DNA of 56,976 nucleotides, filler included, from Jimgerdemannia flammicorona (taxonomy: Eukaryota): the NCBI GenBank assembly GCA_003990765.1. It is 3 parts of 3 records of this genome, joined end to end, with 100 filler letters (N's around TTAATTAATTAA, not from the genome) between each part and the next. Parts side by side here need not be neighbours in the genome. Positions count along the whole stretch, not along the records: positions 19,030 to 37,953 come from RBNJ01002072.1; 2 more parts are not named here. One strand, 5' to 3'. The notes beneath the pieces are model-generated. The model had not been told where the DNA came from and did not search any database. It saw nothing but the letters and a program-made list of their open reading frames with translations. The translations under genes were made by a program, and so were the position numbers. Within the stretch, counting starts at the first letter, position 1; every line of letters starts with the position of its first letter. Positions 19,641 to 21,849 of the stretch are shown piece after piece.

Positions 19641-21849
19641 ACTTGGTACCCATTGGCTGGTAATTCAAGACAAATTCCTCACTTTCAAGATGAAAAATGA
19701 ACAACCCCCACAACAACTACCCTGACTACAAGAGTTACCCCTGCAAGAATTCAAGACAAGATGGAAATACATCTCTCTATATTCTATAGATATACTACTA
19801 AAGAGTCAATCCTGATCTTCATTGAAGACTTTGAACAATTTGCCACCATATGAGCTCTTGGTGTGGATGCACAATTGGCCCTTCTACCAGTCAGCCTCAG
19901 AGGACCTGCCAGAGATAAGTTCAATACAGCCACTATTGCTGGTGCTGATGCAGTCAATCTTGCCAATATGAAGACCTTCCTCAGAACTACATACTATACC
20001 AAGAGATTAAGCAAGCTCTCAAGGATCAACTCAACACTATCTGCCAGAGACTCAGTGAAGATCTCAACTCATTCTATACCCGAATCTGCCACTAGATTGT
20101 TTTGACTGACTATGATGATGCCCTCAAGGAACAAATAGCAGATTCAACCTTTCTCAAAGGAGTTCACCCTGAAATTGCCCTAGCAATCCAGTTTACTCCA
20201 GCTGCTCTGACCCTTGATTAGAAAGTGGTCATTGCACAGAGATATTGGACTGCCAGACATCCTGCTGAACACTTAATGGAGAAAATAACTGGTATCAAGA
20301 TAGAGCCATCAAAGCCAACCAGTATCATACCCACTATAGTTATAAACAGACAACTATCCTCACCTACTCCCAAGATAGCCAAAGCTGATCCAGTGGAGGA
20401 ACTCGCTAAGCAGTTTGCTGAGATGACTGTATACCTTGGTGATGTTGTTAGAGAAGTCTGAAGCACCAACAGAAGACCAGTACAGAGATTTGCAGCTACT
20501 ACAGAAGAACACAATATCACATACTTCAGATGTGGAGAGAAGGCCATTATGCAAAGAGTTGCATGACTAAAACAAGATGCAAGGCCCAACCCAGCAATGC
20601 TACTAGAACCAGAGACCAAATCAATGTAGTAGTCATTGAGAAGATTAGTGATACCAATGATGAAGAATACTACAAAGAATCCAAATACTACCCTGTTACT
20701 GAAGGTGTCAGAACCTGATCCAAGCCCTATGCAAAGAAGAGCAATAGCAAGCCAGTTGGAAGACCAAAGAAGACCCCTGCTGTCACCATTCAAAGCAAGA
20801 CCCAACCTGAGGAGATTGACCAAGATATGGAGTTAGATAAAGCTACCCACCAAATTATTGAAGGCACTACTCCAGTCTCAGGAGAAAGTGAAAGTAAGAA
20901 GGAACAGAAGCTGTACAAGACTAAGATCCACCAGTATGATATCTATAAGAATCTTAAGAAACAGAAGGTCAATGCTACTTTTGGACAACTAGCTGAAGTT
21001 CCTGCCTTTAGACAGCAGTTGAGAGTAGGACTTGCAACTACCATCAAGAATCAAGAGTACAAGATTGTAGAAGCTCACAATGCACAAGAAGAATCCGAAA
21101 ACTTAGGTGAAGAATCTGAAGACTAGCATAAGACATCAGCTTATACTCCATATCAGATTGAAGATTGTATCTTTGATGCCATCATTGATACTAGTGCTGG
21201 AGGATGCCTCATAAGTAAGAAGGCAATTGAGCACTTAGGCTGGGACATTGAAGAGTCCACCAAGATGGTCTATGTTACAGCAGATGGCACATGAGCTACC
21301 CCCCTTGACAAGATCTGAGAAGTCTCCATCAAGATTGGAGGAGCTACTATCTCAGTAGATGTGATTGTTATAAGTACCACCAACTATGACATCCTCATTG
21401 GCAACCAATGGCTTCACAAGGCCAAGGCCATCATTGACCTCAATGCCCAGAAGATGCAGATCAACTATAGAAGAAGAAAGGTACAAGTCTCTATCAATGT
21501 CCACAAAGGAGTTCTACTAGACATGGAGGAAGAAGATGAAGAGGACACAGAAGTCTTCATATACTCAGTGAATAAGAACAAGAACAAGACACCCAAGCTC
21601 ACAGATGAGCAGTAGTATAACAAGATCATCAATAGCTATACCCCTCAAGGAAGATGCCCCCATGGTACCAGGATATACTGCTCCAAACATCTGAATGACT
21701 GCTGGTCCTGTATCAGTGAAGTCAGGAAAATCTGCCAACAGAAGCATGAGCAAGAAGCTGCTGAAGTAAAAAGGAAAGCTAAAGAAGATGACCAGCTCTC
21801 AGAGCTTCAAGCTGACAGTGATGAGGAGGAGGAACAAGAACCAGACATT

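What the first reader, a model, noticed from the sequence alone, without database searches (positions are those of the whole stretch)
21604..21735. Novel Cys/His (putative zinc-binding) module next to the dUTPase in both families
Seen: A reads DEQ*YNKIINSYTPQGRCPHGTRIYCSKHLNDCWSCISEVRKI; B2 (53755-53630, minus) reads DENWYKRIVDGYAPCG**PHSIRMYCMEHVGECHACLSKVFKI; B1 (39280-39410) is similar. Consensus W-Y-x2-I-x3-Y-x-P-x-G-R-C-P-H-x2-R-x-Y-C-x2-H-x3-C-x2-C, followed by an acidic linker. It is neither the gag CCHC knuckle nor the integrase HHCC finger, and I do not recognise it. It precedes dUTPase in A and follows it in B. Zinc binding is inference.
Basis: partly seen in the sequence, partly recalled or inferred. 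Interest (0 to 1): 0.8.

Follow-up and report, generated by a model that had tools for sequence, protein, structure and literature searches.

The report
Unnamed zinc domain in fungal retrotransposons
Several dead gypsy-type jumping genes of what is probably a fungus share a conserved, unnamed 44-residue domain between their protease and their dUTPase; it likely binds one zinc ion and would help hold the dUTPase where the element copies itself, a real but modest addition to the known parts of retrotransposons.

Summary
The module is real. It is a sharply bounded 44-codon stretch between protease and dUTPase in at least four Ty3/gypsy families of this genome (A, E, B, C) and in 20 database proteins. 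It is under strong protein-level constraint. The middle Cys and His become Ser and Met in family C and others, which points to one zinc site. AlphaFold gives a confident helix-hairpin-helix-helix model (pLDDT 90.6), with no match in Pfam, NCBIfam, PDB or viral fold searches. The module is optional for dUTPase: family D has dUTPase and protease without it. It is not tied to the shared 3' ORF, which was not detected in six family C copies. It is more alike between chromodomain and non-chromodomain lineages (26/44) than their reverse transcriptases are (42%), so it probably moved between lineages. Zinc binding and the tethering role are inferred, not shown. The scan noted this module three times before, on other pieces of the same genome. 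Verdict: new variant of a known kind, modest interest.

The parts
21601..21732 (+). Cys/His module, 44-codon core, element A (one in-frame stop). Conserved ligand-type codons at 21655 (C), 21661 (H), 21700 (C), 21709 (C); variable ones at 21679 (C), 21688 (H)
21172..21465 (+). Aspartyl protease of element A, upstream of the module (decayed)
   Evidence: Pfam gag-asp_proteas E 5.8e-10, RVP_2 E 9.6e-10
21733..21876 (+). Charged helix and acidic linker between module and dUTPase in A
   Evidence: sequence; the start of it is helical in the model
21877..22260 (+). dUTPase of element A, downstream of the module
   Evidence: Pfam dUTPase E 3e-22
19518..26842 (+). Element A, Ty3/gypsy without a detected chromodomain: gag, protease, module, dUTPase, RT, RNase H, integrase, 3' ORF; terminal direct repeat of 123 nt at 94%
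25755..26072 (+). 3' ORF region of A, 42% identical to the 3' ORF of B2; not strictly linked to the module
39280..39411 (+). Cys/His module, element B1 (two stops, last Cys position decayed)
38857..39240 (+). dUTPase of B1, upstream of the module; gag CCHC-like knuckle at 38701-38745
   Evidence: Pfam dUTPase E 4.3e-25, zf-CCHC E 0.25 in this copy; E 0.004 in P0005
39562..39930 (+). Aspartyl protease of B1, downstream of the module
   Evidence: Pfam RVP_2 E 1.4e-8
38054..45273 (+). Element B1, chromodomain-bearing Ty3/gypsy, cut at its 5' end by the contig start; chromodomain at 42784-42918
   Evidence: Chromo E 3.6e-5, just under the curated cut-off
53623..53754 (-). Cys/His module, element B2 (two stops)
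47779..56728 (-). Element B2, 90% identical to B1, with terminal repeats of about 570 nt at 93%

Best explanation
The module is a conserved 44-residue domain of the Ty3/gypsy polyprotein, lying between protease and dUTPase in either order; it is predicted to fold on its own, likely binds one zinc ion through C-x-H-x12-C-x2-C, and would act as an adaptor that keeps the dUTPase at the site of reverse transcription. Shown: position, sharp borders, protein-level constraint, which four ligand-type residues are kept, and that a sister family does without it. Predicted: a helix, a short hairpin with Cys-Pro-His at its tip, a short helix, and a long helix that starts with C-x2-C. Inferred: zinc binding (about 0.85); lateral passage between a chromodomain lineage (B, C) and a non-chromodomain lineage (A, E) living in the same kind of host (about 0.7); and the tethering role (about 0.4). 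The tether would work by analogy with the nucleocapsid-dUTPase fusion of betaretroviruses: after the protease cuts the polyprotein, the module stays on the dUTPase in most families and, through its aromatic/acidic face and the basic helix behind it, holds the enzyme on the particle core or its nucleic acid.
For: Four positions are kept in 146, 147, 148 and 146 of 149 distinct gap-free genome copies (these copies were picked as best hits, so they lean to intact) and in 20/20, 18/20, 17/19 and 18/19 database proteins (after dropping the chance hit P0015). pS exceeds pN in all 6 family pairs (0.52-0.88 against 0.18-0.35), and identity falls off at both ends of the 44 codons. The model from alignment A3 has pLDDT 90.6 and pTM 0.70; Cys/His on a hairpin tip plus C-x2-C at the start of a helix is a ligand layout known from treble-clef fingers (recalled). 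16 of 20 database proteins hold a dUTPase or its last motif next to the module, 14 before and 2 after it; the other 4 are short pieces. Read by eye, a cleavage-like motif lies between module and protease in A, E, B, C and P0020, but between module and dUTPase clearly only in B and perhaps P0007 and C (no scoring was done). Basic residues outnumber acidic ones in the 21 residues after the last Cys in most proteins. Precedent: the nucleocapsid-dUTPase fusion is proposed to attach dUTPase to sites of DNA synthesis (PMC4531489, section 9 read). Transfer: module 26/44 between A and B, against RT 42% and dUTPase 42%; RT tree separates A+E from B+C+D at 100/100; only 12 hits among 1.84 billion representatives, which argues against an ancient shared domain.
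Against: No metal binding, partner or activity was measured, and atomic coordinates were not returned, so the ligand geometry was not checked. Family D has gag knuckle, dUTPase and protease with no module (28 loci; 26 show the protease start directly behind the dUTPase, 2 end at the contig edge), so dUTPase does not need it. The module borders the protease just as constantly. In B it appears to be flanked by cleavage-like motifs on both sides and could be released as a free peptide. The core itself is about neutral, with conserved acidic residues, which is unlike a nucleic-acid-binding knuckle. The dUTPase tree is unresolved: one clade of module-bearing dUTPases is neither shown nor rejected (p-AU 0.295), so travel as a cassette with dUTPase is unproven. 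The module tree does not reject one clade of all dUTPase-first elements (p-AU 0.134), so direction and number of transfers are open. P0008 and P0010 hold the module without dUTPase in the piece seen.
Confidence: 0.42

Rival explanations
1. Same zinc domain, but it serves the protease: a spacer domain that times protease dimerisation or activation, like the transframe region of retroviruses (recalled).
For: It borders the protease in every family where both are seen, before it in B, C, P0011, P0012, P0014, P0020, P0023 and after it in A, E.
Against: No family with module and protease but without dUTPase was found; the one such locus (L179) is an internal deletion that cuts the module itself. 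Cleavage-like motifs separate it from the protease (by eye). Family D protease does without it.
Confidence: 0.18
2. Same zinc domain, but an independent accessory factor that is cut free and binds a host protein (nuclear import, ubiquitin or silencing machinery). Its place next to dUTPase would only reflect a spot in the polyprotein that tolerates insertions.
For: It is more conserved between A and B than their dUTPases are. It changes side. It seems releasable in B. Its conserved surface residues are aromatic and acidic, and basic clusters flank it.
Against: It has not been seen far from a dUTPase in any complete context. No similarity to a known host-binding finger was found in sequence scans.
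Confidence: 0.22
3. It is a shortened copy of a known cellular finger (B-box 2, RING, A20 or CCCH) captured from the host, with one of two zinc sites decayed.
For: A cross-brace finger that lost one site would explain why the middle Cys/His pair drifts while the outer four stay (recalled spacing). Weak hits: zf_RING_Vps8_fungal E 0.0023 for P0010 alone, zf-C3HC4_3 E 0.037 in 2 of 18, tristetraprolin E 3.6.
Against: Profile comparison with two host B-boxes gives probability 2% (a thin alignment). The ligand spacing differs from each family. The model has a helix where B-box and RING have a strand-loop, and an extra N-terminal helix that the confident model needs. The weak hits are scattered over unrelated families.
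Confidence: 0.1
4. It is a metal-free linker or a passenger stretch kept alike only by recent DNA exchange between families.
For: Dispensable in family D; all window copies are dead.
Against: Synonymous sites are saturated between A and B while amino acids are kept; four Cys/His are fixed across families; confident compact fold.
Confidence: 0.05

Closest known systems
dUTPase-carrying fungal Ty3/gypsy elements (PosPlaTy3-3, -4, -5 of Postia placenta; Phanerochaete elements; Tuber Tmt1) - PMC2864245, passages read
   Same: Fungal gypsy elements with a dUTPase at varying places: N-terminus of pol, between protease and RT, or C-terminus.
   Different: The passages read mention only CCHC and HHCC fingers, no further Cys/His domain beside the dUTPase. 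Its supplementary table and the Phanerochaete and Tuber papers were not seen.
Extra zinc knuckle after the dUTPase in Juno elements of bdelloid rotifers - PMC5408684, passages read
   Same: A zinc-binding motif placed directly beside a dUTPase in the pol of an LTR retrotransposon.
   Different: Called a Zn knuckle, a term the paper uses for CX2CX4HX4C; its exact spacing in pol was not given in the passages. It follows the dUTPase in a protease-dUTPase-RT order. Our module has C-x-H-x12-C-x2-C and no zf-CCHC hit.
Nucleocapsid-dUTPase fusion of betaretroviruses (MMTV p30, M-PMV) - PMC4531489, section 9 read
   Same: A zinc-finger module stays joined to the dUTPase and is proposed to hold it where RT makes DNA. 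Families B, C and D have the same gag knuckle-dUTPase-protease order.
   Different: There the tether is the gag nucleocapsid itself, with CCHC knuckles. Here it is a separate domain of other spacing and predicted fold, on either side of the dUTPase.
Treble-clef-type single zinc fingers such as A20 (recalled)
   Same: Two ligands on a hairpin turn and two at the start of a helix; A20 has a similar 11-residue gap (recalled).
   Different: No Pfam hit to such a family; the model has a short helix instead of a second hairpin, and an added N-terminal helix.

Membership tests
gag CCHC zinc knuckle (PF00098) | C-x2-C-x4-H-x4-C spacing | tested here: not met
   Conserved spacing is C-x-H-x12-C-x2-C; the elements' own CCHC knuckle lies elsewhere, in gag.
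integrase HHCC finger (PF17921) | H-H-C-C order at the integrase N-terminus | tested here: not met
   Order is C-H-C-C; the integrase finger is found separately in B1.
B-box 2 (PF00643) | Eight ligands, C-x2-H-x7-C-x2-[CD]-x4-C-x2-C then two His (recalled; host copies seen) | tested here: not met
   Four fixed ligands, shorter gaps, no conserved closing His pair.
B-box 2 (PF00643) | Profile similarity to B-box sequences | tested here: inconclusive
   hhalign probability 2% against an alignment of only two host B-boxes.
RING finger | Eight-ligand cross-brace with an N-terminal C-x2-C pair | tested here: not met
   No N-terminal pair; only scattered hits below cut-off.
CCCH (tristetraprolin) finger | C-x8-C-x5-C-x3-H | tested here: not met
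   A look-alike stretch at E 3.6 keeps only one of the four ligands; no hit with the larger profile.
Treble-clef / A20-type finger | Ligands on a hairpin knuckle and at a helix start | tested here: inconclusive
Treble-clef / A20-type finger | Structural superposition on a solved member | tested here: inconclusive
   Fold searches on this small model cannot exclude a family.
Zinc-binding domain (any) | Bound zinc | not testable with these tools
   Needs a metal assay.
Ty3/gypsy LTR retrotransposon (host elements) | Protease-RT-RNase H-integrase order between direct repeats | tested here: met
Chromodomain-bearing gypsy (families B, C, D) | Chromodomain after the integrase | tested here: met
   Chromo E 3.6e-5 (B1, just under cut-off), 3.1e-17 (C), 2.5e-12 (D); none in two A copies.

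The most novel reading that the evidence does not exclude
The module is a zinc finger of a fold not yet solved, a portable adaptor that was swapped between two deeply split gypsy lineages in one host group and set down on the opposite side of the dUTPase. It would be a second, independent invention of a zinc-finger tether for a retroelement dUTPase, or a small retrotransposon factor that binds a host protein.
Probability: 0.3. Interest if true: 0.55.

Novelty: new variant of a known kind. Interest (0 to 1): 0.33.

Why it matters
Why some retroelements carry a dUTPase, and how the enzyme is kept in the particle, is still open for retrotransposons. A conserved domain that sits beside the dUTPase in two orders, and is absent from a sister family in the same genome, gives a natural with/without comparison. 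It also adds an unnamed zinc-finger-like family for Pfam and shows domain exchange between co-resident gypsy lineages. The reach is narrow: the domain is known only from dead elements of one host group and soil metagenome pieces, and no function is shown.

Tried and rejected
Family libraries: no significant Pfam hit for the module; VMAP-M14 at E 0.0005 hit 1 of 18 rows only, below cut-off; NCBIfam best E 0.13. PHROG 29887 reached E 0.0011 for 4 of 18 rows and best E 0.013 in the genome; its members could not be seen, so it stays an unexplained weak lead. PDB by sequence: PPR repeat artefacts, tristetraprolin E 3.6, nothing with A3. Fold searches with the confident model: no Foldseek match at E <= 0.001 in PDB or viral models; best VIA Z 3.6 (rmsd 3.1, 46 aligned) among 48,161 chains, generic helical hits; best Z 2.9 on the second look. 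These blanks do not show that the fold is new. A model of the 35-residue core alone, family C first, was poor (pLDDT 65, pTM 0.35) and was not searched, so the fold of the four-ligand variant was not checked on its own. ESM Atlas: best 0.84 and 0.75, below useful level. Locus scans with the module found nothing in metagenome, viral or prokaryote collections; the P0011 scan gave two dUTPases without the module. Phage tblastn hits were E 0.06 or worse. Sequencing runs: no RNA holder listed; the A family is covered in four unrelated public runs as short contigs, which shows presence only. L179 looked like a module-less A family but is an internal deletion. P0015 was dropped as a chance hit. Literature searches (listings only unless named elsewhere) showed no description of this motif; Repbase, GyDB and subscription papers could not be searched. 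The host-group word was a guess from memory and was not tested. PMC3248453 (passages) has no mention of dUTPase; bioRxiv 10.1101/2023.09.13.557621 (passages) reports only dUTPase enrichment.

Full report
Setting. The window is three contigs joined by N spacers: G000 C2071, C2072 and C2073. The genome is 231 Mb in 35,354 contigs. It is probably fungal: two genes in the window match Zn2Cys6 at E 0.002-0.005, below the curated cut-off, so this is a hint, not proof. The elements are CpG-depleted relative to neighbouring DNA and carry many stops. Element A (19518-26842, +) reads gag, protease, module, dUTPase, RT, RNase H, integrase, 3' ORF, with no chromodomain detected. B1 (38054-45273, +) and B2 (47779-56728, -) read gag with CCHC knuckle, dUTPase, module, protease, RT, RNase H, integrase, chromodomain, 3' ORF.

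Observation. In the window, A and B share 22-25% in protease, 32% in dUTPase, about 36% in RT and RNase H and 26% in integrase. Stop-free copies from elsewhere in the genome share 26 of 44 residues in the module, against 42% in RT and 42% in dUTPase. Identity drops to background on both sides of the 44 codons. pS exceeds pN in all six family pairs and is saturated for A-B and B-E. So the likeness is kept by selection on protein, not by recent DNA exchange.

How widespread. A fourth family E, A-like in order, appeared. A search with Pfam dUTPase gave 30 loci: 28 of a family D, 1 of C and 1 lone host-like dUTPase. D has dUTPase directly followed by protease and no module; a full D element lacks it throughout (L133; its one hit belongs to an adjacent C copy). 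Outside the genome, HMMER over 1.84 billion representatives found 12 proteins, and word-index searches found 2 and then 16. With two cluster members this makes 21 proteins; P0015 was dropped as chance. Three of the remaining 20 (P0004, P0005, P0023) are families A, B and C themselves and are not independent. Sixteen hold dUTPase or its last motif beside the module, 14 before and 2 after; four are short pieces without it.

Which residues matter. Among 149 distinct gap-free copies (of 164 hits; A 52, B 41, C 50, E 6) the first Cys, first His and last two Cys are kept in 146, 147, 148 and 146. The middle Cys is Ser in 47 of 50 C copies, and the middle His is Met in 49 of 50. In database proteins the outer four are kept in 20/20, 18/20, 17/19 and 18/19, the middle two in 11/19 and 9/19. 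The family signature is therefore C-x-H-x12-C-x2-C with a fixed Pro and Met and several aromatic positions. That fits one tetrahedral metal site.

Fold. AlphaFold2 on the 18-row alignment gave pLDDT 90.6 and pTM 0.70: helix 6-14, a two-strand hairpin with Cys-Pro-His at the turn, helix 32-37, and helix 39-54 starting at the C-x2-C. Without the first helix, and with a C copy first, the model was poor. Coordinates were not returned, so ligand geometry is unchecked. Sequence and fold searches named no family (listed under Tried and rejected); for a domain this small such blanks do not prove a new fold. I tested the idea of a shortened B-box, whose lost second site would explain the two drifting ligands; the profile comparison gave 2% on a two-sequence alignment, so it has no support here.

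History. The RT tree splits A+E from B+C+D at 100/100; B with C has 84/88. B, C and D carry chromodomains and A does not. A domain found in both lineages, more conserved than RT yet very rare in databases, is most simply explained by lateral passage. The module tree rejects B+C alone as a clade (p-AU 0.023) but not all dUTPase-first elements as a clade (0.134); most rows have no RT to compare, so this does not fix direction or number. The dUTPase tree is unresolved and neither shows nor rejects a common origin of module-bearing dUTPases (p-AU 0.295). A's dUTPase is as close to unrelated database dUTPases (up to 45%) as to B's.

Link to the 3' ORF. The ORF shared by A and B (42% over 106 residues) was found by tblastn in 1 of 3 E loci and in an A locus, and in 0 of 6 C copies that include the integrase and DNA beyond it; one deleted C copy shares only a short upstream stretch with B. 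Earlier notes suggest distant relatives of that ORF in three families, so absence at E 0.001 is not final.

Mechanism. The constant is the place between protease and dUTPase. Read by eye, cleavage-like motifs lie between module and protease in most families, but between module and dUTPase clearly only in B (unscored). A basic helix usually follows the last Cys. I therefore favour an adaptor that stays on the dUTPase and holds it at the core, as proposed for the nucleocapsid-dUTPase of betaretroviruses (PMC4531489, section 9 read), at 0.42. A free accessory factor (0.22) and a protease regulator (0.18) are the main rivals. Against the favoured reading: D needs no module, the core is not basic, and B may release it.

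Prior knowledge. dUTPase at varied places in fungal gypsy elements is described (PMC2864245, passages), as is an extra zinc knuckle after dUTPase in rotifer Juno elements (PMC5408684, passages). Seven literature searches showed no account of this motif. I read no supplements; the structure table of PMC2864245 and the Juno figure may bear on novelty. Three earlier notes of this scan report the same module on other pieces of this genome; they are not independent evidence.

Verdict. Observation confirmed, interpretation partly supported. A real, unnamed, likely single-zinc domain: new variant of a known kind, interest 0.33.

Noticed in passing
window 18930-19029 and 37954-38053: N spacers with a short stop-linker join three separate contigs; neighbourhood across them is an artefact.
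   Followed up: yes
window 25755-26072 (+), 43641-44447 (+), 49179-48862 (-): An unnamed 3' ORF is shared by the non-chromodomain family A and the chromodomain family B (42% over 106 aa); no significant Pfam hit; also in one E locus.
   Followed up: partly
window 43202-43430 and L136:6047-6271: A second short stretch behind the chromodomain is shared by families B and C (65% in one frame, similar in others, so possibly DNA-level likeness).
   Followed up: no
window 38054-45273 and 47779-56728: B1 and B2 lie as an inverted pair about 2.5 kb apart on one contig, 90% identical over 7.2 kb.
   Followed up: no
window 909-2648 and 6718-8422: A roughly 5.7 kb tandem duplication carrying two Zn2Cys6-like genes, 82-92% identical in parts.
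   Followed up: no
window 16487-18885 and 56886-56950: Two CpG-poor tandem copies about 1.27 kb apart, split by a long A run, with a third partial match at the window end; probably repeats of another element.
   Followed up: no
L093 (G000:C6287:6598-6984, -): A lone, intron-free, host-like dUTPase outside any element seen, with changes near catalytic motifs; may be a pseudogene or the host gene.
   Followed up: partly
L178:810-1325 and P0005, P0020 N-terminal parts: Families B, C and P0020 share an unusual gag region with a conserved G-C-x-H-x2-W-C-type motif before the CCHC knuckle; no Pfam hit there in P0005.
   Followed up: no
L188:1501-1599 and L189:1501-1599 (-): Two host genes carry B-box 2 fingers above the Pfam cut-off.
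   Followed up: partly
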